From positions 240,001 through 272,000 of the forward strand of contig AP024486.1 in NCBI GenBank assembly GCA_021654395.1: 32,000 nt of DNA, given 5' to 3'. The notes below the pieces were generated by a model, which saw only the letters and a program-made list of their open reading frames with translations, searched no databases and had not been told where the DNA came from. Numbering within the stretch: the first letter of the stretch is position 1; every line of letters starts with the position of its first letter. Positions 6,460 to 21,178 of the stretch are shown one piece after another. The translations under genes and the position numbers were made by a program. This DNA is from Candidatus Saccharimonadota bacterium (GTDB taxonomy: Archaea > Micrarchaeota > Micrarchaeia > Micrarchaeales > Micrarchaeaceae).

Positions 6460-7620
6460 TTAGAAGCCTTTAGAGATACAGCTTCTAATATATCTATCAA
6501 AATTGTTTAGGAAGGCATCTACTGTATAGCTCTCTTTTATCTTATTATAAGCTGCCTTTCCAATGCTCTCAGATAGAGAGCTATCATTTATAATAAGATT
6601 TAGCTTCTCTGCAAACTCTTCTGGTGTGCTGCATAAGAAGCCGTCTACTCCATTCTTTATATAATCCTTTGGACCGCCTTCATTTATAGCTAATACTGGC
6701 TTTCTACTTGCCATCCCCTCTAGAGGGACTATTCCGAAATCCTCATCCATTGCAACAAATAGCACAGCAGTTGCATTAGCATATAGATCTAAAAGCTCTT
6801 TATCAGAAGGATTTGTTCTTATTTCAATACTACCAACGCTCTTTGCTAGCTCTACTATCCTATTATAGTAATCTTGATAGAACTTATCATTTGAAAGAGC
6901 CCCAGCAAGTATCAGCTTATATCTATTATCTTTGTCGTATCTTTCCTTAAATACCTTAAATATCTCTATTGCGAGCTCCTGTCTCTTATTTGGAGAGAAT
7001 CTAGAAGGATATAGTATATATCTGCCATCACCAGCGTTATAAAATCTTTCTAGCTCTATTACTCCAGGGTTAATTATAGTGGCATCATTCCTATTATAAT
7101 ACTTAATAATTCTACTATTTGTATTGCTGCTATTTGTTGCTATATACTTTATCTTCCTTACCATACTCTTATCTATATACCTAGTTATACTTGCCCCTAT
7201 AGCATATACTGGTTTTTTATATAATGGTCTTAAGCTCATTCTGTACTTATAAAGATCGTAGATCTCTCTTAATGGAGTATGGCAGTACCATATAAGATTC
7301 TTATTATTCCTTATAAGCCAATGGCTAGGCGCTATATGTGCATTTATTACATCATAATCCTCTTTTACCTTGTAGTTATAGAATACTAGACTGTAATTTA
7401 TAGCTTGAGAGACCCTGCCATAAGGTATAAACTTGTATATGCTCTTTACTCCGATCTCTTTTACATTCAGCTCTTTGAACTCCTCAAATGTCTTATTTGG
7501 ATCATAGTCACATGTTAATATATCTGCATTATACTTCAAGGCTATATACTTAATTACCTTTTCAGCCCCTCCTTTAAGATTTAGATAAGGAGTTGAGATA
7601 AGCATTCTTACGCTATTCAT
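6460..7620 (-). CDS. Glycosyltransferase, GT-B fold, family 4 / group 1
   Basis: C-terminal GT1/GT4 signature EDFGIVPLEGMASRKPVLAINEGGPKDYIKNGVDGFL; size (386 aa) is typical. Confidence 0.85.
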   Translation of the reverse strand: MNSVRMLISTPYLNLKGGAEKVIKYIALKYNADILTCDYDPNKTFEEFKELNVKEIGVKSIYKFIPYGRVSQAINYSLVFYNYKVKEDYDVINAHIAPSHWLIRNNKNLIWYCHTPLREIYDLYKYRMSLRPLYKKPVYAIGASITRYIDKSMVRKIKYIATNSSNTNSRIIKYYNRNDATIINPGVIELERFYNAGDGRYILYPSRFSPNKRQELAIEIFKVFKERYDKDNRYKLILAGALSNDKFYQDYYNRIVELAKSVGSIEIRTNPSDKELLDLYANATAVLFVAMDEDFGIVPLEGMASRKPVLAINEGGPKDYIKNGVDGFLCSTPEEFAEKLNLIINDSSLSESIGKAAYNKIKESYTVDAFLNNFDRYIRSCISKGF

Positions 7621-8591: not shown

Positions 8592-8634
8592 ATAGTTATA
8601 GATTTTAAATAAGCTAACTACTAATTAATCTTTA

Positions 8635-9990: not shown

Positions 9991-10031
9991 AAAGATCACA
10001 TAAAATTTTAACTATACAAATAAATAAATAT

Positions 10032-10394: not shown

Positions 10395-10398
10395 AGTA

Positions 10399-11127
10399 TC
10401 ACTTAAATACTCTTATTCCCTTAGATGTTATCTGATAAGGCAGCGCTGTTGTTTTATGATTAGAGCCACGCATCTTCACTACTCTAACTAGGTACTGATA
10501 GCTACCGCCTATATCTTTAGTGTATAGCTTAATTATTCCATCAAACATATAAGTTCCATATAAGCCAAAGATCTCCGTAAAGTTATCTGTCTGGCTTGAC
10601 TCCAATGTATATAAAACTGTTAAGCCTCTTTTCTTCATAGAGCTTGTAAGATCTATAAGATACCTTGTAAAGATCTTATCATTCTCAAATAGAGTTCTAT
10701 AGACCGTTAAAGAATCTATTGTTATATATGTAGCCTTATTCTCTTCTATAGTCTTCTCTATAGAAGCTATATCCGCCTCTGACTCTTCTCTAGATTTTAT
10801 TGCATACTTCCTCTCTACATTCTTTATATTTAATAGACCTTTTGATATAAGCTCATCGATATCATCAAAGTACTCAAATGCGCTTTTTAAGTTTTTGAGG
10901 ATCTCATCTACTCCCTCTTCTGTAGAAATAAAGCAAGTAGCTATTCCTGCTTGAGCATTTCTATAAAGAGTCTCAAAGCTCATTAAGGTCTTTCCAGTTC
11001 CTGGCTCACCTACAACTAAGACCTGCGCTGCCTTTGGTATTCCACCGTAAAGCATATCGTCTAGTCCATCTATGCCAGTGCTTACCTTCTCTATAAGTAC
11101 TCCTCCTTTATAATCCTCTTCAGCCAT
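10399..11127 (-). CDS. KaiC-like / RecA-superfamily single-domain ATPase (second of tandem pair)
   Basis: STGIDGLDDMLYGGIPK, Walker A GEPGTGKT, catalytic STEEG, Walker B-like YITIDS, C-terminal VKMRGSNH. The ORF-track GTG start at 11136 is probably part of the SD (GTGATctctATG); ATG at 11127 preferred. Confidence 0.8.
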   Translation of the reverse strand: MAEEDYKGGVLIEKVSTGIDGLDDMLYGGIPKAAQVLVVGEPGTGKTLMSFETLYRNAQAGIATCFISTEEGVDEILKNLKSAFEYFDDIDELISKGLLNIKNVERKYAIKSREESEADIASIEKTIEENKATYITIDSLTVYRTLFENDKIFTRYLIDLTSSMKKRGLTVLYTLESSQTDNFTEIFGLYGTYMFDGIIKLYTKDIGGSYQYLVRVVKMRGSNHKTTALPYQITSKGIRVFK

Positions 11128-11135
11128 AGAGATCA

Positions 11136-11861
11136 CTATATCTCAACAATGTCTATTCCAGAGGACGTTATCTCATAAGGAAATGCTTTAGTAGAATGAG
11201 ATGTGCCTCTCATCTTTACAATCTCTAATGTTCTAATCCTGCTATCTGTATTGCTGCTGAAGTACATTCCTATAACTCCGTCATATATAAAGAACTCTGG
11301 TGGAAACTCTAAGAAGTCTCTATACGGCTTACTGACTTCTAGAGTTAATAATGCTGTTATATTATTCTTCTTCAAGATATTTATTAGCTTCATCGACATC
11401 AATCTAAAGCTTATTGGATCGCTTATAAGATTCTTAAATATAGTTACAGAGTCTATCACAGCGACAGATACATTATTGTTAAGGATTATTGAGTAGATCG
11501 ATGCTAATGCGTTATTAAATAGATAAAGCATCTGCTTAGTATCGTCGAAGGCAGAGTTGCTTATTACCTGAAGTATATCCTCTCCATTAATGATTAAGCT
11601 ATTCTTATTAATTAGATCTTCTGCATCACTGAAATCGCTAAAAGCCTCTATAGCATCATCTATTATCTGCTTTGGTGTCTCCTCTAATGATATAAAAGCA
11701 GATTTCAGCCCCTTCTTTGCATTCTTGTATAGAAACTGAAAGCAGAATAGGCTCTTACCAGCGCCTGCGCCTCCTGCCAATATTACTACATTACCTTTTG
11801 GTATTCCACCCCCCATTAAAGAGTCTAGCTTATCTATACCTGTAGTTATCCTTTCTTTCAA
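11136..11861 (-). CDS. KaiC-like / RecA-superfamily single-domain ATPase (first of tandem pair)
   Basis: TTGIDKLDSLMGGGIPKG, Walker A GGAGAGKS, SLEET, Walker B VAVIDS, VKMRGTSH. Its stop overlaps or abuts the next KaiC-like gene. Confidence 0.8.
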   Translation of the reverse strand: MKERITTGIDKLDSLMGGGIPKGNVVILAGGAGAGKSLFCFQFLYKNAKKGLKSAFISLEETPKQIIDDAIEAFSDFSDAEDLINKNSLIINGEDILQVISNSAFDDTKQMLYLFNNALASIYSIILNNNVSVAVIDSVTIFKNLISDPISFRLMSMKLINILKKNNITALLTLEVSKPYRDFLEFPPEFFIYDGVIGMYFSSNTDSRIRTLEIVKMRGTSHSTKAFPYEITSSGIDIVEI

Positions 11862-11946
11862 GCAGAGTCACCATTTACTAAAGATTTATGAATTAATATT
11901 TAAAACACTATACTTATCTTAAGGCTTTAAGAAAAAGAGAGAGATG

Positions 11947-12021
11947 TGGGCTCGGAGAGATTTGAACTCTCGACCTACGGCTTATAAGACCGTCGCTCTA
12001 ACCAGGCTGAGCTACGAGCCC
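11947..12021 (-). tRNA. tRNA-Ile, anticodon UAU
   Basis: Hand-folded cloverleaf on the minus strand: GGGCTCG TA GCTC AGCCTGGTTA GAGC G ACGGT CTTATAA GCCGT AGGTC GAGAG TTCAAAT CTCTC CGAGCCC A. All four stems pair (one G-U). Anticodon loop C-U-UAU-A-A. No encoded CCA, no intron. Confidence 0.85.
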
Positions 12022-12071
12022 ATATAATTTAATTTTATATAAAGATAAACTATTTTAAGATATCTTTAAGT

Positions 12072-13298
12072 CTAACCTGGCACTGTATAGTTATTCTTTA
12101 TATAAGGTGGCTTTGGAGTAACTTTTGGTAATCCTCCAGTATAGTTAACAAGCTTAAATATCCTCAGAGGCAGAGTATAATTTATGAAATTTACGCCACT
12201 CTCTGTAGTATTTGGAAATACTTGTACAAATCCTGGGAGCTTTCCTAAGAAGAAGCCCTCATAGAAAGGCGAATTGTAAAATTCTGTTGGTGCGTCTGTT
12301 ATACTTCCATTGCTATTTGGAACGTAGATCACTAGTGTTACTATAAAGTCTTGAGTAATATTATCTATCTTAGCTGTAGTTATCTGCGCTTGGTTATAAT
12401 TTTGAATATTTACATAAGCATTTAGTCTGGTTCCATTGCCATAGTATAAAGGCCATGTGCCTGGAGACTCTCTAGGTATGCATATTGTAGTATTCTGATC
12501 AACCAAGTTTAAGAAGCCAGCGCCTAATGAGTTAGTAAGCCATACTCTTAAGTATACTGTATTATTACTGCTCTTAGAAGCAGAAGGTATATTGCAAAAG
12601 TCAGTCTCAAGAACATTTATACTATTGTTTAATGGTATAGGGATTAATGCATATACTGGATTATGCTTTAGCTCACAAGGGCTTGTTCCTAGTAGAAATG
12701 GTTGGCCCACTAGCTTACCTTGCTGTATTGCATATTGCTCAGATGTTGCATTTATATCTATGCAAGCAAGGAAGTCTAAGGCACCCCACTTTGATATTAA
12801 TCCTTGACTAAAGACAACGTACTCTGATTGATTATTATTCATATAAGATGCTAAAGCTGCTGGTCCAAAGCCATCCGCAGTTGTAAAAACAAAATGTGCA
12901 GCAACTCCATAATCCTCTTTAGCAAACGCATTGTCTCCTCTTATTACAGTATTACTAAAGCCAAACCAGTTTATCCAATCTCCGTAGTCCCACCACGCAA
13001 GTACTCTTGGTGCATAAGGTCCAACATTCTTTGCCATCCACTGAGTAGCTGCAATCCAATATGATGGAACTTGATTACAGAACTCTGCAAAGCCCAAACC
13101 ATTACCTTCATTTGCTAAAGCACTACACGTTAAGGTAAGATTGCCGTTATTGCTGGCATATGTCAATGCTGCACTAAATGCAGCAGGCAAGCTAGTCCAT
13201 GCCCCAGATAACAGCGTGCCTTTGCTTAAAAAATTAAGTATCTCTAATAGAAGTATAAGTCCTATAAATATAATTAAGACTAACTTATAAGAGTCCAT
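12072..13298 (-). CDS. AglB/STT3 C-terminal (extracytoplasmic) catalytic-domain protein with a single N-terminal TM anchor
   Basis: One N-terminal hydrophobic helix (LVLIIFIGLILLLEILNFL). Then WIAATQWMAKNVGPYAPRVLAWWDYGDWI contains the WWDYG oligosaccharyltransferase motif in its usual context. A DK/MI-like segment EYVVFSQGLISKWGAL follows. Many N-x-S/T sequons. Confidence 0.75.
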   Translation of the reverse strand: MDSYKLVLIIFIGLILLLEILNFLSKGTLLSGAWTSLPAAFSAALTYASNNGNLTLTCSALANEGNGLGFAEFCNQVPSYWIAATQWMAKNVGPYAPRVLAWWDYGDWINWFGFSNTVIRGDNAFAKEDYGVAAHFVFTTADGFGPAALASYMNNNQSEYVVFSQGLISKWGALDFLACIDINATSEQYAIQQGKLVGQPFLLGTSPCELKHNPVYALIPIPLNNSINVLETDFCNIPSASKSSNNTVYLRVWLTNSLGAGFLNLVDQNTTICIPRESPGTWPLYYGNGTRLNAYVNIQNYNQAQITTAKIDNITQDFIVTLVIYVPNSNGSITDAPTEFYNSPFYEGFFLGKLPGFVQVFPNTTESGVNFINYTLPLRIFKLVNYTGGLPKVTPKPPYIKNNYTVPG

Positions 13299-13481
13299 AG
13301 TTTATATCTTAGGTCTAATAACATTTAAATAGTTTAGCAAGATTAATAGCCTTTATAATCTCAGTTAGATTAAAGATTATTTAATGAATATATATTTGAT
13401 TAGTTAGATTATAAGATCAAGTGCTGTATAAGCTAAAAGCATCTAAGGATTTATAAGTATTGTTTATTAATTCATGCTAAA

Positions 13482-13509
13482 GACGTGCGTCTATATAGAC
13501 GCCTACGTC
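13482..13509. promoter_or_regulatory. GC-clamped palindrome centred on a TATATA box just upstream of the ribosomal protein cluster
   Basis: GACGTGCGTCTATATAGACGCCTACGTC: perfect 16-bp palindrome GCGTCTATATAGACGC (13487-13502), plus outer GACGT/ACGTC arms. The TATATA centre lies about 25 nt upstream of the uL3 ATG (13520). Confidence 0.4.
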
Positions 13510-13519
13510 AGTGATATAT

Positions 13520-14479
13520 ATGTCAAAAGGTTCGCATAGAGGATCCATGCAATTTTGGCCCCATAGGAGGGCTAGAAGGATACTACCAAGACTTAGAAAG
13601 CAGTATAGTAAAGGCAAGCTATTTAATATAGTTACAGTAAAAGCAGGAATGACTCATGTAATGCTAATAGAGCAAGCAGAAGGACCTAGAAAGAATCAAG
13701 AGGTTGTAGTCCCAGTAACAGTATTAGAGGTTCCAGAGACAAAGGTATACGGAATAAGATTATACAAGAAAGACAGCAATAATTATATGAATTCATCTAT
13801 CGATATACTACATAGAGCTACTGCTGCAGAGCTAAAGATAAAGAAGATAAAGTATGATGAGAGCAAGATAGACGAGCTAATTAATAATTCAGATAATATA
13901 GAGAGAGTAGATCTTCTTCTATATGCTAAGATAGATGGCACATCCGCAGATATTAATCATCCTATAAGATATCAGTCATCATTTGAGTACTCAGATATAA
14001 AAGACGCATTAACAAAAGCAAGGGGCATGCTTGGAAGTAAGATAGATATAAAAACACTCTTTAATCCAGGGGAGTATGTAGATGTTGTTTCAATATCAAA
14101 GGGGAAGGGTTGGCAGGGTCCTATAAAGAGATTTCATGTTACAAGGCAGTATAGAAAATCAACAAATAAGGTAAGGCATGTTGGTGTTCTAGGACCAATG
14201 AGACCTGGTAAGATATTCTATACTGTACCTCAAGCGGGTCAGTTAGGATTCAACTATAGAACAGAGTTAAATAAGCAGATAATAGGGGTATTTAGTAAAG
14301 ATGAGGCAGATAAGGTAAACAGAAAGGAAGGATTCAAGAACTATGGTATTATTAAGAATGATTATATAATGCTAAAAGGGTCGGTTCCAGGAGTAGCAAA
14401 GAGGATAGTGAGGATAAAGCAGGCAGTAAGACCAACAAAGAAGTCGGTTCCTATTAAGATAACTTATATAGATAAGTGA
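13520..14479 (+). CDS. rpl3: 50S ribosomal protein uL3
   Basis: N-terminal RGSMQFWPHRRA and KGKGWQGPIKRF motifs; first gene of the conserved L3-L4-L23-L2-S19-L22-S3 order. ORF-track GTG 13511 lies inside GTGATatatATG, so ATG 13520 is preferred. Confidence 0.95.
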   Translation: MSKGSHRGSMQFWPHRRARRILPRLRKQYSKGKLFNIVTVKAGMTHVMLIEQAEGPRKNQEVVVPVTVLEVPETKVYGIRLYKKDSNNYMNSSIDILHRATAAELKIKKIKYDESKIDELINNSDNIERVDLLLYAKIDGTSADINHPIRYQSSFEYSDIKDALTKARGMLGSKIDIKTLFNPGEYVDVVSISKGKGWQGPIKRFHVTRQYRKSTNKVRHVGVLGPMRPGKIFYTVPQAGQLGFNYRTELNKQIIGVFSKDEADKVNRKEGFKNYGIIKNDYIMLKGSVPGVAKRIVRIKQAVRPTKKSVPIKITYIDK

Positions 14480-14485
14480 TGAGAT

Positions 14486-15301
14486 ATGCAAGCAGATGTT
14501 TATGATATAAATGGTAAGATTGTATCCAAGATAGAGCTTCCAAAAGAGTTTAGCAAAGAGTACAGGAAAGATCTAATAATAAGAGCATTACTAGCTGAGA
14601 ACACATTAAGGCTGCAGCCGCAAGGACATGCACCAGAGGCAGGAATGCAGGCATCTGTATCATACGTTGGAAGAAGAGGTGCCTACAGATCGCAAGTACA
14701 TACTGGAAGGCCAGGTAGACCAAGACAGAAGTTAAGCGAGGGTCGTTTAGGAGATGTAAGAAGAATACCTTCCGCAGTAAAGGGAAGGAGAGCACATCCA
14801 CACAAAGTAGAGAAGAACATAATAGAAGTTATAAATAATAAAGAGTATACAAAAGCAATAATCTCTGCTATAGCATATACAAATAATGCAAAAGAGGTAT
14901 ATAAGATAGATAAAGATACTCCAATAATAGTAGAAGATGCCATAGAGAAGATATCTAAGACAAAGGATCTTGTTTCATTAATAAAAAGATTAGGATTAGA
15001 GAAGCAGCTAGAGGATGTAGAGAAAAGAAAGCGAATAAGAAAAGGATTAAGAAGATCAGCAAGGCAGAGATCTTATAAGAAATGGCTACTATTTGTAACT
15101 TTGGATAGCAATGCAGATCTGCTAAAAGCAGCAAGAAACATAAAAGGGGTTGATGCAGTTCCATTAGAGAAGCTTTCAGTTGATAAGCTAGTTCCTGGAG
15201 GAAACAATCCAAGAATAGTTATATGGAGCTTATCTTCAGTAAAGAATATAGACAAGATAAAGAATCTTAGATTTATAGATACAGTTTCTGTGAATAGGTG
15301 A
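14486..15301 (+). CDS. rpl4: 50S ribosomal protein uL4
   Basis: Position in the cluster plus the GRRGAYRSQVHTGRPGRPR ... GRRAHPHKVEK region typical of archaeal L4. Confidence 0.93.
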   Translation: MQADVYDINGKIVSKIELPKEFSKEYRKDLIIRALLAENTLRLQPQGHAPEAGMQASVSYVGRRGAYRSQVHTGRPGRPRQKLSEGRLGDVRRIPSAVKGRRAHPHKVEKNIIEVINNKEYTKAIISAIAYTNNAKEVYKIDKDTPIIVEDAIEKISKTKDLVSLIKRLGLEKQLEDVEKRKRIRKGLRRSARQRSYKKWLLFVTLDSNADLLKAARNIKGVDAVPLEKLSVDKLVPGGNNPRIVIWSLSSVKNIDKIKNLRFIDTVSVNR

Positions 15302-15306
15302 AGAGC

Positions 15307-15558
15307 ATGTCAGTATTGTTATATCCATTAAATACTGAAAAGGCAATAAGCCTTATAGATAAGGCGAATACAATAACATTTATAGTGGCAGATGCAGCAA
15401 CAAAGAAGCAAGTAAAGGAGGAGTTTGAAAGGCTATTCAAAGTAAAAGTTAAATCTGTTAATATATCTAATACATTCCTTGAAGGAAAGAAGGCGTATAT
15501 AAAGCTAGAGAAAGATTATAAGGCATCAGATATTGCTGTAAAGCTTAAGCTAGCGTGA
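15307..15558 (+). CDS. rpl23: 50S ribosomal protein uL23
   Basis: LLYPLNTEKAISLID ... ITFIVADAATKKQVKEEFERLFKVKV is the L23 signature; cluster position. Start could be GTG 15298 (overlapping the L4 stop) or ATG 15307. Confidence 0.93.
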   Translation: MSVLLYPLNTEKAISLIDKANTITFIVADAATKKQVKEEFERLFKVKVKSVNISNTFLEGKKAYIKLEKDYKASDIAVKLKLA

Positions 15559-15564
15559 TGATTT

Positions 15565-16278
15565 ATGGGTAAGAGATTGCATCAGCAAAGAAGAGGTAGA
15601 GGAACTAACAAGTATAAGAAGAAGCCAGGAACATTTGATATAGCTCCTAGCTTCAAGGGAATAGATGGCAAAACATATGGAGAGGTAATAGATATCATTC
15701 ATCATACTGGCCATACGGCTCCTTTAATGAAAGTAAGGCTACAGGATTCAAAGGAGATATACTTAATAGCTCCAGAAGGGATTAAGACAGGAGATAGAAT
15801 AGTAATAAATGGGGATCAAGAGGATGCTTCATTAGGAAGTGTCTTAGAGCTTTCAAAGATACCTGCTGGCAGCTTTATATACAATATAGAGAGAATAAGA
15901 GGTGATGGTGGCACATTAGTAAGGAGTGCAGGTTCAACAGCAAGTATAGTATCTCAAACAGAGAATACTGTTACATTAGCGCTGCCATCAAAGAAGCTTA
16001 TAACAGTAAGCTCTAGATGCAGAGCTCAGATAGGCTTAGTAGCAGGTGGAGGCAGATATGATATGCCTTTCATGAAGGCAGGCAGAAAGTATTATAGAAT
16101 GAGAGCTCTTAATAGATTATGGCCAAAGGTTAGAGCAGTAAAGATGAATGCAGCAGATCATCCATTTGGAGGTAAGACCGGAGACAAAAGAAAGCCACAC
16201 ATGTCAAAGAGGAATGCACCTCCTGGTAGAAAGGCAGGTATGATAGCGCCTAGAAGAACAGGTAGAAGAAAGAAGTGA
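15565..16278 (+). CDS. rpl2: 50S ribosomal protein uL2
   Basis: GRGTNKYKK, VIDIIHHTGHTAPLMKV, GGGRYDMPFMKAG, NAADHPFGG and a basic C-terminus; cluster position. Confidence 0.95.
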   Translation: MGKRLHQQRRGRGTNKYKKKPGTFDIAPSFKGIDGKTYGEVIDIIHHTGHTAPLMKVRLQDSKEIYLIAPEGIKTGDRIVINGDQEDASLGSVLELSKIPAGSFIYNIERIRGDGGTLVRSAGSTASIVSQTENTVTLALPSKKLITVSSRCRAQIGLVAGGGRYDMPFMKAGRKYYRMRALNRLWPKVRAVKMNAADHPFGGKTGDKRKPHMSKRNAPPGRKAGMIAPRRTGRRKK

Positions 16279-16283
16279 TGCTT

Positions 16284-16694
16284 ATGGCAGATGAGGAGAT
16301 TAAAAGAGTAGAGAGGGTTGTGTTTAAAGGCTTGACAGAAAGTCAGCTAAAGGAGCTTCCTTACGAGAAGTTCCTACAGCTAATAGATAGCAGAGCTAGG
16401 AGATTCTTAACGAGAAAGTCATTACAGTATAAAGAGGTAATGGCTAATGTAGAAAAGGCAAAAAGAAAAGGATCAAATACAGTAAAGACAAGAGTAAGAG
16501 AGGCAGTCATACTGCCAGAGTGGGTAGGAATGGTGTTTCAAGTGCACAATGGAAAGCAGTATGTAAATGTAGAGATAAAGCCAGAGATGGTTGGTCGTAG
16601 ATTAGGAGAGTTTGTATACACAGTACAGAGAGTAGTTCACTCTACACCTGGTATAAAGGCTACAAAGAGTAGTAGATCTATAGGACAGAAGTGA
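16284..16694 (+). CDS. rps19: 30S ribosomal protein uS19
   Basis: VHNGKQYVNVEIKPEMVGRRLGEFVYT motif; cluster position. GTGATgcttATG junction with the L2 stop. Confidence 0.95.
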   Translation: MADEEIKRVERVVFKGLTESQLKELPYEKFLQLIDSRARRFLTRKSLQYKEVMANVEKAKRKGSNTVKTRVREAVILPEWVGMVFQVHNGKQYVNVEIKPEMVGRRLGEFVYTVQRVVHSTPGIKATKSSRSIGQK

Positions 16695-16699
16695 TGTAT

Positions 16700-17191
16700 A
16701 TGCCATACTCATATAATAAAGATGATAGATCAGATATCATATTTGCATCTATAAAGAGAGCAGATGGTAGCTATAAGGATCTAGTGGCTATATGCGATAA
16801 TATAAAAGGATTGACAGTTAAATCTGCAATAGATCTTCTTAATGAAGTTATAGCGATGAAAAGGCCGTTATACTATAGAACTCATAATAAGAAGCTGGGT
16901 CATAGGCATGAGCTTAATGGTAAGAAAGGAAGATGGCCTGTTAAGGAATCAAAGCTGATGATAAAGATATTAAAGAACGCGATGGCAAATGCAAAGAATA
17001 AGGGATATACTCAAGAGGAAGCAGAGCTGATGAAGATAGTTCATGCTTCAGCGAATAAGGACGGGATGTCTCCTAGAAAATATCCAAGCAAGGGAGCGTT
17101 AGCAGTTCCTGGAAATCATACAATGGGTTATGTTCCATATAGGCTTATAAGAAACTGGTATGCTAAGATAGAGATAGGAATAAAGAAGTGA
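16700..17191 (+). CDS. rpl22: 50S ribosomal protein uL22
   Basis: ICDNIKGLTVKSAIDLLNEVIAMKRPLYYRTHNKKLGHR, typical of archaeal L22; cluster position. GTGATgtatATG junction. Confidence 0.93.
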   Translation: MPYSYNKDDRSDIIFASIKRADGSYKDLVAICDNIKGLTVKSAIDLLNEVIAMKRPLYYRTHNKKLGHRHELNGKKGRWPVKESKLMIKILKNAMANAKNKGYTQEEAELMKIVHASANKDGMSPRKYPSKGALAVPGNHTMGYVPYRLIRNWYAKIEIGIKK

Positions 17192-17195
17192 TTAT

Positions 17196-17819
17196 ATGGG
17201 AATAAAGCACGCATTTATTAAAGACTCTATATTGAAGCATAATATAAATAAGTTCATAAGTGATAGATATAAGCAAGCAGGAATAACAAGGGTTGATGTT
17301 CAAGCAACTCCAATGTTAACTAGAATAATAGTATACTGCAAATATCCTCAAAGAGTATTATCAAGAGGACTAGAGCAGACAAAGCAGCAGATAAGCAAGC
17401 TATTTAATGTGCAGAATCCGCAGATCGTTGCTATACAGATACAGAATGAAAGATTAGAGCCTAAGTTAGTAGCAGAGTTTCTAGCAAGGAAGTTAGAGTT
17501 AGGTGGCAATCCTAGAAAGCTTGCAGAGTCAATGGTTAGATCTATAATAATGAATGGAGCTATAGGAGCAGAGATAAGATTCAGCGGTAAGCTTAAAGCA
17601 AAGAATGCAGAATCTACATCAATAGTAAAGAGAGCAGGCTACTTACCAAAGGCAGGATATCCTGTAAACTATCTTCTTCATGCAAAGGCAGTTGCTAACA
17701 CGAAGTATGGTATAATTGGCATAAAGGTTACAATAACACCAGCAGATATAAAGCTACCAGATAAGGAGATAAGGCAGGTAGAGCTTCCTAAGAATATAGC
17801 CTCAGCATCAAATATATGA
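17196..17819 (+). CDS. rps3: 30S ribosomal protein uS3
   Basis: KH-domain N-terminus, LVAEFLARKLELGGNPRK ... IIMNGAIGAEIRFSGKL; cluster position. Confidence 0.95.
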   Translation: MGIKHAFIKDSILKHNINKFISDRYKQAGITRVDVQATPMLTRIIVYCKYPQRVLSRGLEQTKQQISKLFNVQNPQIVAIQIQNERLEPKLVAEFLARKLELGGNPRKLAESMVRSIIMNGAIGAEIRFSGKLKAKNAESTSIVKRAGYLPKAGYPVNYLLHAKAVANTKYGIIGIKVTITPADIKLPDKEIRQVELPKNIASASNI

Positions 17820-17820
17820 T

Positions 17821-20115
17821 GTGTGGATATCTTTGTTTAGCTCAATATTAGCAATACTTATAGCATCTATATCAATTGTACTGCCAGGTGTATTAATCTC
17901 TTTTGCTCTACTTAAGAGTACTCCTTTTAATACAATAGAGAAGCTTCTAATGGGAATAATATTAGGAGTAATTGCTTTACCAACGCTTCTATGGCTTGAA
18001 AGCTATCTTATAAGCTATATACACTTCTTTAGCTTCTCATTAGCATTAGCAGATCTTGATACTGTAGTCTTAATAGCTTTAGGATTAGTATTATGCTATA
18101 TCAATAATGTATTTTCAGATTTTAAGAGATTTATAAAGAGTCTTAAGATAGACTCTAATAGTGTAATTAAGTATATAAAAACAGATTATGCATATATAAT
18201 ACTTATTATATTAATGCTTCTTGCATTTTATATAAGAGTAGTAAATATAAATGTATCTCAGACATTCTTTGAGTTCGACCCATACTTTGATATGATGGAT
18301 ACTCGTTATATATTGACATATGGTTATCAGCTGCTTAATGATACATCTGCTTGGCCTATAGCACCAAATGGAACAAATCATAGAATACAGCCAATAGTTC
18401 CATATCTGGAAGCATACTTTTATACTTTGTATAATGATACTGTAACTCATTATAGCTATCTTAACAATACTCTTGTATCAAGGGTAAGCAGCATATATCC
18501 TCCACTGACTGCAGCATTACTAGTGTTTGTAGTCTTTCTACTTATATCAAAGAATTATGGCAATGATGTTGCTCTTTTTGGATCTGCATTAGCAGCATTT
18601 AACCAGCTTCTTATTACTACATTTGTAGCAGGAGAGCAGCTATTAGAGCCATGGGGAATATTCTCACTATTCTTCTTTATAGCAGTATATATGATAGCAG
18701 TAAAAGATATGAAGAATAAGAGACTGGCTATACTATCTGGTATAGCATTTGCCTCAACTTTCTTAGGCGCTCACTACTATACAGTAGATGCTGGAATACT
18801 TGCGCTTTATATACTGCTTCAAGGTATAATCTTCTTTATCAAGGATAAGCATGCGTTAAAGGATTTCTATATATTTAACGTTATTGTAATAGCTGTTATA
18901 TCAGTCTTCTTAGCACTTTATCATCCATATCACGCTACACTATCTGGTAGAATTCCATCAGTATTTCATATACCAATAACTGTTGGATTTGCTATACTGG
19001 CATTAATAGCAGTTATCGGTCTACAGATAATAGAAAGGGTAATAAAGAGCATATCATACTTCAGCAAAAAGTCCTCGAGTTTTAGAGATATGGCTACAAT
19101 AGGTATATTTATAATATTAGCATTTGTCTTTGTTATAGCAACTCCGCTGAGGCATACTGTAGTAAGCTATCTATCACTATCTAAGAAGTTTACAACACCT
19201 TCAACACCATTATTTATGACAGTAGCAGAGTTTCAGCCAAGCGGTATTAACTTTAATTTTGGAGGTAATGGCTTCGGCTTAATCGGCTCTCTGCTTTATA
19301 GCTCTACGCTGATGCCTTTGTTCGTATATATCGTAATAGCCTCAACTATAATCTTTCTAGTTTTAGATATTCTGCATAATGCGGATAGATCTGCTATACT
19401 CTACTTAGCAGCATCACTACCACTAATATTTGCAGGCTTCTCAGAGGTCAAGTATCTGCCTCATTTCGATATCGCATTTATAATACTTCTATCTGTATTC
19501 TTAGGTGAGATATTAAGAATAGTGAAGCATTACTATAGAGAGGTTATAATGATAATCTTTGCATCGCTTGCATTATCTATATTAGCATTCAATATAACAT
19601 TAATAAGTGTATATATAAATCTAATCTTATCTATAAGCTCTAGTCTTACATATCTATTTACAAACTCTGCTATTGCAATAGTCATATCTATAATAATGTT
19701 ATCTATAATAGGCTATCAGATATATAGCTCAAAGCATGGTATAAAAGGTAGCTTGAAGATCTCTATAGTTGCCTATATTATACTTTCTATAGCAAGTGCA
19801 TTTCTAACTACAACAGAGATTGTAACATTCACTAACGGGGGAGCTATAGGCTATGGTGGCTTAACGTTTATATTCCTGATTCTTATATTCTCTTTAGCTA
19901 TATCTCTAACATTTTATAAGTTTAGAAATATCAAGGAAGTAAGTATAAGTGATAAAGAGATAATGAAGCATAAGGAGTCTAGATTTATATATGAGGTATT
20001 TCTATTCTTTATATCCCCTATATTAACTCTAATACTTCTAATAAGAGAGTATTATATATATAGCAGAGAGTCAAGCAAAAGCCCAACTGCTGCTATTGAT
20101 AAGACAACTTCATAA
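17821..20115 (+). CDS. AglB/STT3-like oligosaccharyltransferase transmembrane core lacking the WWDYG domain, with an extra C-terminal TM bundle
   Basis: Polytopic membrane protein. FFEFDPYFDMMDTRY matches the STT3/AglB first-loop motif (eukaryotic HEFDPYFNYR). FVAGEQLLEPWGIF matches the second acidic loop motif region. MTVAEFQPSG matches the TIxE/SVSE(H)QP loop-5 motif. No WWDYG anywhere in the 764 aa; the last ~250 aa are further hydrophobic helices. GTG start 1 nt after the uS3 stop. Confidence 0.7.
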   Translation: MWISLFSSILAILIASISIVLPGVLISFALLKSTPFNTIEKLLMGIILGVIALPTLLWLESYLISYIHFFSFSLALADLDTVVLIALGLVLCYINNVFSDFKRFIKSLKIDSNSVIKYIKTDYAYIILIILMLLAFYIRVVNINVSQTFFEFDPYFDMMDTRYILTYGYQLLNDTSAWPIAPNGTNHRIQPIVPYLEAYFYTLYNDTVTHYSYLNNTLVSRVSSIYPPLTAALLVFVVFLLISKNYGNDVALFGSALAAFNQLLITTFVAGEQLLEPWGIFSLFFFIAVYMIAVKDMKNKRLAILSGIAFASTFLGAHYYTVDAGILALYILLQGIIFFIKDKHALKDFYIFNVIVIAVISVFLALYHPYHATLSGRIPSVFHIPITVGFAILALIAVIGLQIIERVIKSISYFSKKSSSFRDMATIGIFIILAFVFVIATPLRHTVVSYLSLSKKFTTPSTPLFMTVAEFQPSGINFNFGGNGFGLIGSLLYSSTLMPLFVYIVIASTIIFLVLDILHNADRSAILYLAASLPLIFAGFSEVKYLPHFDIAFIILLSVFLGEILRIVKHYYREVIMIIFASLALSILAFNITLISVYINLILSISSSLTYLFTNSAIAIVISIIMLSIIGYQIYSSKHGIKGSLKISIVAYIILSIASAFLTTTEIVTFTNGGAIGYGGLTFIFLILIFSLAISLTFYKFRNIKEVSISDKEIMKHKESRFIYEVFLFFISPILTLILLIREYYIYSRESSKSPTAAIDKTTS

Positions 20116-20124
20116 TCAGTTTCT

Positions 20125-20343
20125 TTATATCTTTATTGCCTTATCTATTGCTTCTAGGTCTCTTAGTATCGCATTTATAGACGCTTTAACAGCTATTATA
20201 TCCTCTCCTTCTATATATATAGTAAATCTCTTATCACTTTTAACTGCCTTTATGACACTTCTCTTATATCTCTGGTCCTTTATTATCTTACTTATATCTA
20301 TATCTGGTGAATCTAACTCTATTACTACCTTGTAATGTGTCAT
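20125..20343 (-). CDS. pcc1: KEOPS complex subunit Pcc1-like protein
   Basis: ~72 aa. FTIYIEGEDIIAVKASINAILRDLEAIDKAI resembles the Pcc1 C-terminal strand-helix (x-A-x-D-xx-A-L-R-A-x-x-N-S-x-L-R pattern). True start probably ATG 20343 (ATGATcttaATG). Confidence 0.55.
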   Translation of the reverse strand: MTHYKVVIELDSPDIDISKIIKDQRYKRSVIKAVKSDKRFTIYIEGEDIIAVKASINAILRDLEAIDKAIKI

Positions 20344-20602
20344 TAAGATCATACTCCTTTACAAAATGAAATCTGTTTCCTAGTGCATCAACTACAAAAT
20401 ATCTTATAACGTATCTATCTGATTCCTTTACTATAATTAGTATATCCTTAAATCCCTTTAACGATGCTAATTTGGATAATAATGTTATATCCTTTTTACC
20501 TCTAAGCATAACTAATGGTCTTCTAAATAACTTAGCCAAGCTATTAGATAACTCCAAGCCTTCTTTATAGCTCATTCTTCTAGAATAAGTAATAAGAGGC
20601 AT
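20288..20602 (-). CDS. Brix/Imp4-superfamily ribosome-biogenesis-like protein (short, 104 aa)
   Basis: MPLITYSRRMSYKEGLELSNSLAKLF...LRGKKDITLL ... ILIIVKESDRYVIRYF follows the archaeal Brix-domain N-terminal pattern (ITTSRKPS..tR.fakdL......RGK.sl..l). The 3' 56 nt overlap the Pcc1-like ORF in another frame. Confidence 0.55.
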   Translation of the reverse strand: MPLITYSRRMSYKEGLELSNSLAKLFRRPLVMLRGKKDITLLSKLASLKGFKDILIIVKESDRYVIRYFVVDALGNRFHFVKEYDLNDTLQGSNRVRFTRYRYK

Positions 20603-20609
20603 AAAAGAT

Positions 20610-21122
20610 TTAAGCTAGTAAGCCCCTTACCTTCCTTCCAGCAGAGGTTAATCCTCTAAATGCTCTCCCCTTTCTTCTTATTATCTGACTATAAAACTTA
20701 TCATTAATTATTGCTGGGTGATTTCTATCTACTAGTATAACTTCATAATACTTTGTATTAGATCTGCTTCCAACAAAATAAGAGTTTACAACTTCGCAGT
20801 TCCTATATTCTCTATTTGCCCTCTCCTCTGCAATCATCCTTAAAGACTTATGCCTTGAATAGAACCTTCCTGATTTAGACGGCTTTCTACCCCCATCAAA
20901 TCTCTCTCTTTTTGTCTTACCTCCATCTACTCTAACTCTTACTACAATAACTCCTTGCTTGTCTTTATATCCTAACTTTCTAGCTCTTGCTATATTTGTT
21001 GGCTTATCTATTCTCTTTACAACAGGCTCATCGGCCCATCTTGCTAACCTCTCCTTATACTCTTGACTTCTCTCCTTATACTCATTCTGAAAAGTCTCTT
21101 GAATATACTTATACATACTCAT
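20610..21122 (-). CDS. rpl15e: 50S ribosomal protein eL15
   Basis: YKYIQETFQ ... VVKRIDKPTNIARARKLGYKDKQGVIVVRVRVDGG ... is the L15e signature. True start probably ATG 21122 (GTGATattaATG). Confidence 0.9.
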   Translation of the reverse strand: MSMYKYIQETFQNEYKERSQEYKERLARWADEPVVKRIDKPTNIARARKLGYKDKQGVIVVRVRVDGGKTKRERFDGGRKPSKSGRFYSRHKSLRMIAEERANREYRNCEVVNSYFVGSRSNTKYYEVILVDRNHPAIINDKFYSQIIRRKGRAFRGLTSAGRKVRGLLA

Positions 21123-21178
21123 TAATATCACAGTAGTATTAATCTAATAAAGGTTTATATTTGTTTTTATATAAAATA

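What the first reader, a model, noticed from the sequence alone, without database searches (positions are those of the whole stretch)
12072..13298. WWDYG catalytic domain of the AglB/STT3 oligosaccharyltransferase encoded as a separate, single-TM-anchored protein
In all characterised STT3/AglB/PglB enzymes, the WWDYG motif lies in a soluble domain fused C-terminally to a 13-TM core. Here a 408-aa ORF has just one N-terminal hydrophobic helix. It then carries the canonical context WIAATQWMAKNVGPYAPRVLAWWDYGDWI and a DK/MI-like segment (EYVVFSQGLISKWGAL). The matching TM core is a different gene 4.5 kb away on the other strand (17821-20115), and that gene lacks WWDYG. Together they look like a naturally split N-glycosylation oligosaccharyltransferase whose halves must assemble in trans. 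I am not aware of a described split AglB.
Basis: partly seen in the sequence, partly recalled or inferred. Interest (0 to 1): 0.72.

Follow-up and report, generated by a model that had tools for sequence, protein, structure and literature searches.

The report
Naturally split N-glycosylation enzyme AglB
In the tiny cultivated archaeon ARM-1, a 7-kb DNA inversion has cut the enzyme that attaches sugar chains to proteins (AglB/STT3) into two separate, well-conserved genes, which suggests this normally single-chain enzyme can work as two pieces.

Summary
ORF1 (12072-13298, minus strand, 408 aa) has one N-terminal membrane helix followed by a WWDYG domain. Its model matches only oligosaccharyltransferase (OST) catalytic subunits. 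ORF2 (17821-20115, plus strand, 764 aa) folds like the STT3/AglB/PglB membrane core and keeps the EFDPYF and TVAE motifs.

The window is from Micrarchaeota strain ARM-1 (ARM1_0268 and ARM1_0276, both annotated "hypothetical"). All relatives checked are fused: 115 of 115 full-length proteins and 80 of 80 species-level loci have one 990-1165-codon ORF. ORF2 and ORF1 map onto them end to end, and the cut lies in a short cytoplasmic loop.

Synteny points to one inversion of the block L3…S3 plus the aglB N-part. An independent short-read assembly confirms the ORF1-side junction.

ARM-1 keeps 99 of 102 family-invariant residues, and its halves are no more diverged than its ribosomal proteins. A second clade, on virus- or plasmid-like contigs, also encodes core and WWDYG protein as separate genes, cut at the same topological place.

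Not shown: expression, physical assembly, or the absence of another AglB in the genome.

I rate it a new variant of a known kind, interest about 0.65.

The parts
12072..13298 (-). ORF1 = ARM1_0268, 408 aa. C-terminal half of AglB: one N-terminal membrane helix (topological TM13) followed by the extracytoplasmic WWDYG domain (CC unit) and a beta-rich peripheral domain.
   Evidence: The ORF is listed and is 100% identical to ARM1_0268. The AF2 model has pLDDT 87.7 and pTM 0.83. Foldseek ranks 1-34 are all PglB/AglB/STT3; against AfAglB-S2 (3vu0) TMt is 0.54-0.57 and rmsd 3.0 A over 130 columns. The sequence has 13 N-X-S/T sequons and six family-invariant cysteines, which fits an extracytoplasmic location.
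13221..13286 (-). Codons for ORF1 aa 5-26, the single membrane helix (LVLIIFIGLILLLEILNFL). It is homologous to the last TM before the globular domain in fused relatives.
   Evidence: The Kyte-Doolittle peak is 2.91 and the model has a helix at aa 2-26. In relatives the loop before this helix is positively charged, so the helix should run from inside to outside.
12981..12995 (-). WWDYG motif (ORF1 aa 102-106), which forms the Ser/Thr(+2)-binding pocket of OSTs.
   Evidence: Read directly from the sequence. W103, D104, Y105, G106, W108, I109 and N110 are invariant in 75 fused relatives. The role of the motif is described in PMC3703281.
12768..12809 (-). DK-type (Lys-type) motif region, ORF1 aa 164-177: S164 (D in the family) ... 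K170-W-G-A-L174-D-F-L177.
   Evidence: K170, W171, A173, L174 and L177 are invariant. D164 is S in ARM-1, whereas 71 of 75 relatives have D. Motif definitions DXXKXXX(M/I) and E<>KXXX(M/I/P) come from PMC3703281. The assignment is by sequence only and was not superposed on a structure.
13299..13510 (.). Inversion breakpoint 1. This is now a 212-bp divergent intergenic region between ORF1 and the L3 operon. It holds a TATA-like ATTTAAAT at 13323-13330, about 28 nt upstream of ORF1's ATG, which would suit a leaderless transcript. An in-frame TAA lies two codons upstream of the ATG.
   Evidence: Sequence. A TATA-like hexamer occurs in the same -36..-21 interval at 7.5% of random positions, so this is weak evidence. 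The junction is confirmed by the independent Logan assembly L096.
13511..17819 (+). Ribosomal protein genes L3-L4-L23-L2-S19-L22-S3. They were carried along inside the inverted block.
   Evidence: ORFs; Pfam assignments in the L096 gene table. The same block lies directly upstream of fused aglB, on the same strand, in 52-58 related loci.
17821..20115 (+). ORF2 = ARM1_0276, 764 aa. N-terminal part of AglB: the STT3-fold membrane core (TM1-12 with EL1 and EL5) plus lineage-specific helices. It starts 1 nt after the S3 stop codon, which is the ancestral position.
   Evidence: Identity to ARM1_0276. TIGR04154 E 3.3e-8 over aa 126-565. The AF2 model has pTM 0.79 and is confident over aa 1-580. Foldseek ranks 1-19 are STT3A, AfAglB, yeast STT3 and PglB, with E 5.6e-9 to 6e-4 and 470-547 aligned columns. 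S3-to-aglB adjacency holds in 58 loci.
18271..18291 (+). First acidic motif in EL1: E151-F-D153-P-Y-F-D157. My own recollection is that yeast STT3 reads EFDPYFN here.
   Evidence: F152, D153 and Y155 are invariant in the 75 fused relatives and retained in ARM-1. E151, P154, F156 and D157 are invariant in the 51-sequence alignment A2.
18631..18648 (+). Candidate second acidic motif: G271-E272-Q-L-L-E276.
   Evidence: Invariant columns. Equivalence to the DXD/DXE/DXH motif of characterised OSTs was judged by eye only.
19219..19230 (+). EL5 motif T467-V-A-E470 (the TIXE/SVSE class).
   Evidence: T467 and V468 are invariant in the 75 fused relatives. E470 is invariant in alignment A2.
19537..20079 (+). 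ORF2 aa 573-753: four lineage-specific TM helices and the conserved FF[IV]SP hydrophobic segment. In fused relatives this region links TM12 to the last TM.
   Evidence: Homology of the FFISP segment and the preceding charged loop to fused relatives is shown.
20080..20287 (+). Inversion breakpoint 2. It comprises about 11 non-homologous C-terminal codons of ORF2 (SPTAAIDKTTS), the stop codon at 20113-20115 and the following spacer.
   Evidence: Junction alignment; sequence. There are no inverted repeats shared with breakpoint 1 beyond chance: the longest is 9 nt, and 49% of shuffles reach that length.
20288..21131 (-). A 104-aa gene and ribosomal protein L15e. They were formerly the upstream neighbours of L3 and now lie after ORF2 on the opposite strand.
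   Evidence: L15e Pfam E 1.1e-52. The L15e homologue lies upstream of L3, on the same strand as aglB, in 44 related loci. This is what the single-inversion model predicts.
6460..7620 (-). GT4 glycosyltransferase. It is co-directional with ORF1, as it is with the C-terminal end of fused aglB in relatives.
   Evidence: Pfam Glycos_transf_1 E 6.6e-29. It lies directly downstream of aglB, on the same strand, in 14 loci.

Best explanation
ORF2 and ORF1 are the two halves of the single Micrarchaeota-type AglB gene, which encodes the N-glycosylation oligosaccharyltransferase.

Origin. In the ARM-1 lineage, one inversion of about 6.8 kb flipped the block [L3…S3 + aglB codons 1 to about 753]. One breakpoint lay in the intergenic region upstream of L3. 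The other lay inside aglB, in the short cytoplasmic loop before the last transmembrane helix. ORF2 stayed behind S3 and is presumably still transcribed with the ribosomal operon. It gained about 11 new codons and a stop. ORF1 starts at what looks like a pre-existing internal Met. It now faces the L3 promoter region divergently and needs its own promoter.

Proposed mechanism (inferred). ORF2 inserts as the membrane core. It supplies the metal- and lipid-linked-oligosaccharide-binding residues E151/D153, E272/E276, E470 and K544. ORF1 inserts independently as a signal-anchor protein, N-terminus in and C-terminus out. Its helix takes the TM13 position, and its globular domain docks on loops EL1 and EL5. 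This brings WWD and K170, the Ser/Thr(+2) pocket, over the catalytic site. The result would be a non-covalent two-subunit OST.

Shown: homology of both halves, the fused ancestral state, the position of the cut, the inversion, and sequence conservation.
Inferred: expression of both halves, their assembly, and activity.
For: Homology
- Profile hits for both ORFs.
- Foldseek ranks 1-34 (ORF1) and 1-19 (ORF2) are all OST catalytic subunits.

Fused ancestry
- 115 of 115 full-length homologues hit ORF2 with their N-terminal part and ORF1 with their C-terminal part.
- 80 of 80 species-level loci have one uninterrupted in-frame ORF.
- The junction maps to one inter-helix loop with nothing lost.

Inversion
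- S3 lies directly upstream of aglB in 58 loci.
- L15e lies upstream of L3 on the aglB strand in 44 loci, whereas in the window it lies after ORF2 on the opposite strand.
- GT4 is co-directional downstream of the C-terminal part (all).

Real, not an artefact
- The genome is closed, from PacBio plus MiSeq reads (PMC8784108).
- An independent Logan short-read contig of 59.6 kb is 100% identical across the ORF1/L3 junction.
- There are no breakpoint repeats beyond chance.

Constraint
- ARM-1 retains 99 of 102 invariant columns and 219 of 244 columns conserved at 90% or more.
- ARM-1's ribosomal proteins are as divergent or more so.

Topology
- The positive-inside rule puts the cut loop in the cytoplasm and the WWDYG domain outside.

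Precedent for viability
- A diverged clade (45-67% identity among members) keeps the core and the WWDYG protein as separate genes. They are adjacent in L092 and separated by 1 to 9 genes in L008 and L093-L095. The cut is also after TM12.

Organism
- An N-linked glycan of Microcaldus variisymbioticus (= ARM-1) is reported by Nakagawa et al. 2024. I know this only from its citation in PMC12153357.
Against: - There is no direct evidence that either ORF is expressed or that the two proteins bind each other. No co-fold could be run.
- The rest of the 814-kb genome could not be searched, so another AglB cannot be excluded.
- No close relative of ARM-1 exists in the databases: the best hit is 47-53% identical. 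The inversion therefore cannot be dated. If it is very recent, intact ORFs and conserved residues would say little about selection.
- ARM-1 has the lowest retention of conserved columns in the family (0.885 and 0.914, against a minimum of 0.891 and 0.923 among the others). The D164S change sits at a DK-motif signature position.
- Curated profile cut-offs are not reached: PF21436 scores 22.5 against 23, TIGR04154 scores 32 against 450, and PF02516 gives no hit.
- The TATA-like box upstream of ORF1 is weak evidence, with a background frequency of 7.5%.
Confidence: 0.7

Rival explanations
1. The two ORFs are recent, non-functional remnants. The inversion killed aglB. Either another OST elsewhere in the genome does the work, or the observed N-glycoproteins arise in some other way. 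On this view the halves simply have not had time to decay.
For: The rest of the genome could not be searched: ARM-1 was not returned by the genome scan. No close relative is available to date the event. ARM-1 has the lowest conserved-column retention in the family.
Against: Both long ORFs are intact in a 35% GC genome. ARM-1 retains 99 of 102 invariant residues, including all catalytic motifs. Its divergence is no greater than that of its essential ribosomal proteins. ORF1 begins with an ATG and has a TATA-like box at the right distance. Among the best 80 loci returned by the genome scan, no contig or assembly appears twice, which suggests one copy of this AglB per genome. A split state is stably maintained in another clade. 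The genome is reduced (814 kb) and the organism is reported to make N-glycoproteins.
Confidence: 0.15
2. Both halves are kept but no longer work together. For example, ORF1 could act as a surface sequon- or glycan-binding protein, and ORF2 as a lipid-linked-oligosaccharide hydrolase or some other GT-C activity.
For: Stand-alone single-TM WWDYG proteins exist with no core gene within 6 kb on either side: P0024 in L003.
Against: Residues needed only for joint catalysis are retained in both halves: WWD and K170 in ORF1, and E151/D153, E470 and the EVKYLPH motif in ORF2. In the second split clade a core gene is always on the same contig. According to PMC3703281, isolated C-terminal domains show distorted Ser/Thr pockets when contacts with the TM region are missing.
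Confidence: 0.08
3. The split is an assembly artefact, or it is one state of a reversible, recombinase-driven invertible segment that restores the fused gene in part of the population.
For: The two halves lie in inverted orientation at the ends of one 6.8-kb block. That is the geometry expected for an invertible element.
Against: Long- and short-read co-assembly gave a closed circle. An independent short-read-only assembly reproduces the ORF1/L3 junction inside a 59.6-kb contig without a break. There are no inverted repeats at the breakpoints beyond chance: the longest is 9 nt and 49% of shuffles reach that. Pfam scans of the window's main ORFs gave no recombinase hit; the 456-aa ORF at 1915-3285 had no Pfam hit at all. 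The junction carries about 11 extra codons and a stop, not a clean recombination site.
Confidence: 0.03

Closest known systems
Fused AglB of other Micrarchaeota, for example Candidatus Micrarchaeum sp. A_DKE (NZ_CP060530, locus L059) and proteins P0028-P0146
   Same: They are 45-53% identical to the ARM-1 halves and collinear with ORF2 followed by ORF1. They share the motifs, the position after ribosomal protein S3, the extra N-terminal helices and the FF[IV]SP segment.
   Different: They are one polypeptide of 990-1165 aa. ARM-1 has two genes on opposite strands 4.5 kb apart, plus four additional helices after TM12.
Archaeoglobus fulgidus AglB-L (3WAJ, 3WAK, 7E9S) and AglB-S2 C-terminal domain (3VU0)
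   Same: Same GT-C membrane fold: ORF2 against 7e9s gives E 1.3e-8, 491 columns and rmsd 5.3 A. Same CC unit with WWDYG and a Lys-type pocket: ORF1 against 3vu0 gives TMt 0.54-0.57.
   Different: The A. fulgidus proteins are single chains. Sequence identity to ARM-1 is only 14-20%. The peripheral domains differ, and ARM-1's curated-profile scores are below threshold.
Eukaryotic STT3 (yeast 6EZN and 8AGC; human STT3A 9N9J and 6S7O)
   Same: The best structural match of ORF2 is human STT3A (E 5.6e-9). My own recollection is that ORF2's EFDPYF and TVAEFQP resemble eukaryotic EFDPYFN and SVSEHQP.
   Different: STT3 is a single chain inside a multi-subunit complex. Its accessory subunits are unrelated to either half of the ARM-1 enzyme.
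Two-gene AglB on virus- or plasmid-like contigs (L008-L010 and L092-L095; WWDYG proteins P0026 and P0147-P0161)
   Same: The core (about 430-548 aa, ending just after TM12) and the single-TM WWDYG protein (245-350 aa) are separate genes. The cut is at the same topological point.
   Different: Both genes lie on the same strand, either adjacent or separated by 1-9 small genes. They are 25-33% identical to the ARM-1 halves. The origin is independent: ARM-1 shares 45-53% identity with fused Micrarchaeota AglB, against only 25-33% with this clade. The host or element type is unknown, with no hit in IMG/VR or BFVD.
Alg13/Alg14 and EpsE/EpsF versus fused MurG-like glycosyltransferases
   Same: This is another enzyme of lipid-linked glycan pathways that exists both fused and split, into a membrane-anchor part and a catalytic part (PMC4973528).
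   Different: It has a different fold (GT-B, GT28-like), and the split lies between an anchor and a soluble catalytic domain. In ARM-1 the active site itself is built from both pieces.
Split protein genes of Nanoarchaeum equitans and other DPANN archaea (own knowledge: reverse gyrase, alanyl-tRNA synthetase and others)
   Same: Gene fission in a reduced DPANN genome, with the halves encoded at separate loci and assumed to assemble in trans.
   Different: To my knowledge AglB is not among the described cases. Here the rearrangement that caused the split, a single inversion, can be reconstructed.

Membership tests
STT3/AglB/PglB oligosaccharyltransferase catalytic subunit (GT-C fold, CAZy GT66) | Polytopic GT-C membrane domain with long external loops EL1 and EL5 | tested here: met
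   In the ORF2 model aa 1-580 are confident. Foldseek ranks 1-19 are all STT3, AglB or PglB, with probability 1.0 and 470-547 aligned columns. The next hits are other GT-C enzymes: DPY19, ArnT and PMT. TIGR04154 aligns aa 126-565 to profile positions 2-437.
STT3/AglB/PglB oligosaccharyltransferase catalytic subunit (GT-C fold, CAZy GT66) | First diacidic motif in EL1 (DXD/EXD) | tested here: met
   ORF2 has E151-F-D153-P-Y-F-D157. These columns are invariant across fused relatives. The motif definition is from PMC3703281.
STT3/AglB/PglB oligosaccharyltransferase catalytic subunit (GT-C fold, CAZy GT66) | Second diacidic motif (DXD/DXE/DXH) | tested here: inconclusive
   An invariant G271-E272-Q-L-L-E276 lies at the expected place. 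Residue equivalence was judged by eye, without structural superposition.
STT3/AglB/PglB oligosaccharyltransferase catalytic subunit (GT-C fold, CAZy GT66) | TIXE/SVSE motif in EL5 | tested here: met
   ORF2 has T467-V-A-E470. T467 and V468 are invariant in the 75 fused relatives, and E470 is invariant in alignment A2. The motif was located.
STT3/AglB/PglB oligosaccharyltransferase catalytic subunit (GT-C fold, CAZy GT66) | WWDYG motif in an extracytoplasmic CC structural unit | tested here: met
   ORF1 has W102-W-D-Y-G106. Foldseek ranks 1-34 are OST C-terminal domains; against 3vu0 TMt is 0.54-0.57 and rmsd 3.0 A.
STT3/AglB/PglB oligosaccharyltransferase catalytic subunit (GT-C fold, CAZy GT66) | DK or MI motif on the kinked helix (DXXKXXX(M/I), E<>KXXX(M/I/P) or MXXIXXX(I/V/W)) | tested here: inconclusive
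   The family reads D164<5 residues>K170-X-X-X-L174. K170 and L174 are invariant, and ARM-1 has S164. This fits the insertion-variant Lys type in PMC3703281, except that L replaces M/I/P. It was not verified in three dimensions.
STT3/AglB/PglB oligosaccharyltransferase catalytic subunit (GT-C fold, CAZy GT66) | Membrane domain and WWDYG domain on one polypeptide (true of all characterised members) | tested here: not met
   They are two ORFs on opposite strands. The junction is confirmed by an independent assembly. This is the point of the finding. It is an architectural regularity rather than a mechanistic requirement.
STT3/AglB/PglB oligosaccharyltransferase catalytic subunit (GT-C fold, CAZy GT66) | Scores above curated profile thresholds (Pfam PF02516 and PF21436; NCBIfam TIGR04154) | tested here: not met
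   PF21436 scores 22.5 bits against a cut-off of 23. PF02516 gives no hit. TIGR04154 scores 32.4 against 450. The fused relatives score equally low, so this reflects a divergent lineage rather than the split.
STT3/AglB/PglB oligosaccharyltransferase catalytic subunit (GT-C fold, CAZy GT66) | Transfers a lipid-linked oligosaccharide to Asn of N-X-S/T | not testable with these tools
   The only support is indirect. An N-linked glycan of the organism is cited in PMC12153357 from Nakagawa et al. 2024.
Trans-acting split genes of DPANN archaea | Halves collinear with a fused orthologue, with no overlap or loss, and each an intact ORF | tested here: met
Trans-acting split genes of DPANN archaea | Both halves expressed and assembled into an active enzyme | not testable with these tools
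   No expression data or co-fold were available. The ARM-1 papers held in the library do not mention these genes.

The most novel reading that the evidence does not exclude
The connection between TM12 and TM13 of the STT3 fold is a fission-permissive seam. OSTs can work as two-subunit enzymes made of a TM1-12 catalytic core and an exchangeable 'TM13 + WWDYG' acceptor-recognition subunit. ARM-1 would rely on such a heterodimer as its only OST. Mobile elements or viruses of Micrarchaeota-like hosts would carry two-gene OSTs, possibly to reprogramme host surface glycosylation.
Probability: 0.35. Interest if true: 0.8.

Novelty: new variant of a known kind. Interest (0 to 1): 0.65.

Why it matters
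As far as I could find, every characterised N-glycosylation OST catalytic subunit (STT3, AglB, PglB) is one chain. Its active site is formed jointly by the membrane core and the WWDYG domain.

A natural, conserved two-gene version would show that the covalent link is dispensable and would mark where the fold can be cut. ARM-1 is cultivated, has a closed genome and has a published N-glycan, so assembly of an OST from parts could be studied directly in it.

The split could also guide the engineering of split or modular OSTs for glycoengineering. It explains why both genes are annotated "hypothetical", so genome surveys that count AglB presence or absence in DPANN may miss such cases. It also adds a case of gene fission in which the causal rearrangement can be reconstructed.

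Tried and rejected
1. Single-sequence phmmer of ORF2 against PDB gave no hits. A family profile against PDB hit only WWDYG-domain crystal structures, not membrane cores. Structure prediction was needed instead.

2. The short homologues were tested as possible further splits:
- P0002 is cut by a contig end.
- P0021 (L006) and P0011 (L007) are frameshift-fragmented calls in noisy assemblies where the ribosomal genes are also fragmented.
- I rejected all three as independent splits.

3. The 812-aa and 469-aa neighbours of stand-alone P0024 are not STT3 cores. It remains unresolved whether that genome has a core elsewhere.

4. I searched for inverted repeats that could have mediated the inversion, caused a misassembly or served a recombinase. 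None exceeded chance.

5. The genome-collection scan did not return ARM-1 itself, so it could not answer whether the genome has a paralogue. The supplements of the ARM-1 genome paper are not held.

6. Virus identity of the second split clade was not established. There is no relative in IMG/VR, no PHROG hallmark and no BFVD structural match.

7. The correlation between N-part and C-part identities across relatives was uninformative (rho 0.02), because ARM-1 is about equally distant from all of them.

8. My first TM count put the WWDYG domain in the cytoplasm. This was resolved by loop-charge analysis: the FF[IV]SP segment has positively charged loops on both sides and is probably re-entrant. 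That remains an inference.

9. Nakagawa et al. 2024 (J Bacteriol), the paper most likely to discuss ARM-1 AglB, could not be read.
Full report
**Observation**

The window holds a 408-aa ORF at 12072-13298 on the minus strand (ORF1) and a 764-aa ORF at 17821-20115 on the plus strand (ORF2). ORF1 contains the quoted strings, with WWDYG at aa 102-106 and EYVVFSQGLISKWGAL at aa 159-174. It has one hydrophobic helix at its N-terminus. ORF2 is polytopic and has no WWDYG. ORF1 is 100% identical to ARM1_0268 and ORF2 to ARM1_0276. Both are annotated "hypothetical protein" in Candidatus Micrarchaeota archaeon ARM-1, on an 814,439-bp contig. This is the cultivated thermoacidophilic DPANN archaeon later named Microcaldus variisymbioticus. 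Its closed circular genome, AP024486, was assembled from PacBio and MiSeq reads (PMC8784108).

**What each half is**

ORF1:
- Pfam PF21436 (STT3/PglB/AglB core) hits at E 1.7e-4, 22.5 bits, just under the 23-bit cut-off.
- It hits AglB and PglB C-terminal-domain crystal structures weakly by sequence.
- An AlphaFold2 model built on 55 family sequences is confident (pLDDT 87.7, pTM 0.83).
- Foldseek against PDB returns only OST catalytic subunits in ranks 1-34: PglB 3rce at E 2.6e-5, P. furiosus and P. horikoshii AglB domains, and yeast and human STT3.
- The shared part is the roughly 130-residue CC unit. Against the minimal AfAglB-S2 domain 3vu0, TMt is 0.54-0.57 and rmsd 3.0 A.

ORF2:
- NCBIfam TIGR04154 (archaeo_STT3) hits at E 3.3e-8, aligning aa 126-565 to profile positions 2-437.
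- Its model is confident over aa 1-580 (pTM 0.79).
- Foldseek ranks 1-19 are all full-length OSTs: human STT3A 9n9j at 5.6e-9, AfAglB 7e9s at 1.3e-8 with 491 columns, yeast STT3, and PglB. Other GT-C enzymes follow.
- It carries E151-F-D153-P-Y-F-D157 in EL1, T467-V-A-E470 in EL5, and an invariant E542-V-K-Y-L-P-H548.

**The family is normally fused**

ORF2's homologues are almost all 1,000-1,160 aa, and many are labelled Stt3 by JGI. All 115 homologues of 990 aa or more match ORF2 with their N-terminal part and ORF1 with their C-terminal part, in that order.

A scan of species-representative genomes found 238 relatives. In all 80 loci retrieved, all of them Micrarchaeota, one uninterrupted ORF contains both parts in frame. 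It is 990-1,165 codons where the contig is complete.

In a MAFFT alignment of ORF2+ORF1 with fused relatives, the end of ORF2 and the start of ORF1 fall in one short loop between the last two hydrophobic segments before the globular domain. Nothing is lost. About 11 residues of ORF2's tail (SPTAAIDKTTS) have no counterpart. ORF1's M-D-S-Y-K resembles the internal M-D-E-Y-K of relative P0063, so the start codon is probably an ancestral internal Met. An in-frame TAA lies two codons upstream.

**How the split arose**

In 58 related loci, ribosomal protein S3 lies immediately upstream of aglB on the same strand. In 52-58 loci the whole L3-L4-L23-L2-S19-L22-S3 block does. In the window, ORF2 follows S3 by 1 nt, which is the ancestral position.

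The L15e gene (Pfam E 1e-52) lies in the window just after ORF2 on the opposite strand. In 44 related loci it lies just upstream of L3 on the aglB strand. The GT4 glycosyltransferase that follows aglB co-directionally in 14 loci is co-directional with ORF1 in the window.

A single inversion reproduces the window order exactly: ORF1(-) | L3…S3-ORF2(+) | 104-aa gene(-), L15e(-). The inverted block is [L3…S3 + the aglB N-part], roughly window 13.3-20.1 kb. One breakpoint lies upstream of L3 and the other inside aglB.

No inverted repeats occur at the breakpoints beyond chance: the longest is 9 nt, and 49% of shuffles reach that.

**Not an artefact**

A short-read-only Logan assembly of run DRR248898 is independent of the deposited genome. 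It yields a 59.6-kb contig whose retrieved 9,227 nt are 100% identical to window 8072-17298. That stretch includes the divergent ORF1/L3 junction. The second breakpoint should lie within the same contig but was not retrieved.

**Constraint**

I compared ARM-1 with 75 complete fused relatives.
- It keeps 123 of 139 (N-part) and 96 of 105 (C-part) columns conserved at 90% or more.
- It keeps 99 of 102 invariant columns. The three changes are N80D, W200F and A306S.
- This retention is the lowest in the family.
- The same test on ARM-1's neighbouring ribosomal proteins gives equal or lower retention: L3 0.895, L4 0.852, L2 0.785, S19 0.829, L22 0.865, S3 0.632.
- Identity ratios for those proteins are 0.62-0.99, against 0.88 for both AglB halves.

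ARM-1 is simply a divergent lineage. The AglB halves show no extra decay. The one notable change is D164S, at the first signature position of the DK-type motif. The functionally critical Lys (K170) and L174 are kept (motif roles from PMC3703281).

**Topology and the exact cut**

I laid out hydrophobic segments and loop charges from the EL5 motif to WWDYG. After EL5 come TM10, TM11 (ending at the EVKYLPH motif), TM12, and then a positively charged loop. In ARM-1, four extra helices follow, with alternating loop charges. Next comes the conserved FF[IV]SP hydrophobic segment. Both of its flanks are positively charged, so it is probably re-entrant or sits in the inner leaflet. That is an inference. 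After it comes the cut loop, and finally ORF1's helix.

This gives a consistent picture:
- The cut loop is cytoplasmic.
- ORF1's helix runs from inside to outside and is the topological equivalent of TM13.
- The WWDYG domain is outside, in line with its 13 sequons and six invariant cysteines.

**A second, independent split**

The stand-alone homologue P0026 (334 aa) heads a clade of 245-350-aa proteins that are 45-67% identical to it. On every contig examined, a separate gene encodes an STT3-like core of about 430-548 aa.
- In L092 the two genes are adjacent.
- In L008 one zinc-ribbon-like gene lies between them.
- In L094, L095 and L093 there are three, four and nine genes between them.

The L008 core retains the EFDP, TVQE and SKYL motifs and ends three residues after TM12. 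The cut is therefore at the same seam.

These contigs are dense runs of small, co-directional orphan genes together with PCNA, MCM, DNA and RNA ligases, TnpB, glycosyltransferases and a tRNA. They look like viruses or plasmids. No hallmark was found, and there were no IMG/VR or BFVD matches.

That the split state persists across this much divergence argues that a two-polypeptide AglB is workable.

**Organism-level support**

PMC12153357 (Fig. 4 legend) cites Nakagawa et al. 2024 (J Bacteriol 206:e00205-24) for an N-linked glycan structure from Microcaldus variisymbioticus. I could not read the primary paper, so I do not know whether it discusses AglB. The two ARM-1 papers held in the library do not mention N-glycosylation or these genes.

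**Most likely mechanism**

Shown: both halves are homologous to the two parts of one ancestral AglB. They were separated by an inversion in a cytoplasmic loop, and they retain the family's conserved residues.

Inferred: ORF2 is co-transcribed with the ribosomal operon. ORF1 is transcribed from the 212-bp divergent region. A TATA-like ATTTAAAT lies about 28 nt upstream of its ATG, though the background frequency of such a hexamer is 7.5%. Each protein inserts independently. ORF1's helix docks at the TM13 position, and its CC unit sits on EL1 and EL5. The WWD/K170 Ser/Thr pocket then completes the active site formed by E151/D153, E272/E276 and E470.

I put about 0.97 on the split-by-inversion origin and about 0.7 on a functional heterodimer.

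**Rivals**

- Recent non-functional remnants with another OST elsewhere: 0.15.
- Halves retained for separate functions: 0.08.
- Artefact or reversible switch: 0.03.

**Comparison and novelty**

By fold and motifs this is an AglB/STT3-type OST. It fails only the architectural regularity of one polypeptide and the curated profile thresholds. The fused relatives fail those thresholds too.

Full-text searches found no described split AglB, STT3 or PglB. The nearest analogy in glycosylation pathways is Alg13/Alg14 versus fused MurG-like enzymes (PMC4973528).

I rate it a new variant of a known kind.

**Main limitations**

- No whole-genome paralogue check.
- No co-fold.
- No expression data.
- No close relatives to date the event.

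Noticed in passing
L008:7998-11005 (the same layout occurs in L009 and L010); L092:6171-8948; L093:2925-8575; L094:5802-8996; L095:2-2876: A clade of AglB genes is split into a core of about 430-548 aa that ends after TM12, and a single-TM WWDYG protein of 245-350 aa. The two genes are adjacent or separated by 1-9 small genes. The contigs are dense, co-directional and rich in orphan genes, and carry PCNA, MCM, ligases, TnpB and a tRNA-Leu. They look like viruses or plasmids, but no hallmark gene was found.
   Followed up: partly
L003:6012-7586 (P0024; GCA_021817325.1): A stand-alone 524-aa protein has one N-terminal TM, an extra domain of about 200 aa, and then the WWDYG domain. It is seen on 12 contigs. 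No STT3-like core lies within 6 kb on either side. It could be a paralogue or a third kind of split.
   Followed up: partly
window 6154-6459 (+): The TBP gene encodes only 101 aa, that is, one TBP repeat instead of the usual two. Homologues in six other Micrarchaeota loci also sit in ORFs of 105-142 codons. A half-size TBP therefore seems to be a lineage trait.
   Followed up: partly
window 13511-20115; loci L012-L091: In most Micrarchaeota (58 of 80 loci), aglB directly follows ribosomal protein S3. The usual archaeal continuation of that ribosomal cluster is therefore broken, and the OST gene sits at the end of the L3-S3 operon.
   Followed up: yes
window 17196-17819 (+): ARM-1's ribosomal protein S3 is unusually divergent. 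Its mean identity to relatives is 0.45, against a median of 0.73 among the others, and it keeps only 63% of conserved columns. This is far more divergence than in its other ribosomal proteins.
   Followed up: no
window 17821-18200 and 19537-20079 (ORF2 aa 1-125 and 573-753): The Micrarchaeota AglB family has about 3 extra N-terminal helices. It also has a multi-TM insertion of variable length after TM12, and a conserved FF[IV]SP hydrophobic segment flanked by positively charged loops, which may be re-entrant.
   Followed up: partly
window 24127-25275 (+): A 382-aa tRNA-splicing endonuclease has two catalytic-domain stretches plus N-terminal-domain matches. From my own knowledge, this is reminiscent of the multi-unit single-chain endonuclease described for ARMAN/Micrarchaeota.
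   Followed up: no
window 10399-11861 (-) and 10032-10394 (-): Two tandem KaiC-like ATPase genes and a thioredoxin gene lie between ORF1 and the SRP54 gene. They are absent from the aglB neighbourhood of the relatives examined.
   Followed up: no
window 21384-22079 (-): A DUF92 integral membrane protein (Pfam E 2e-37) lies next to the L15e gene, near the OST core gene. Its function is unknown.
   Followed up: no
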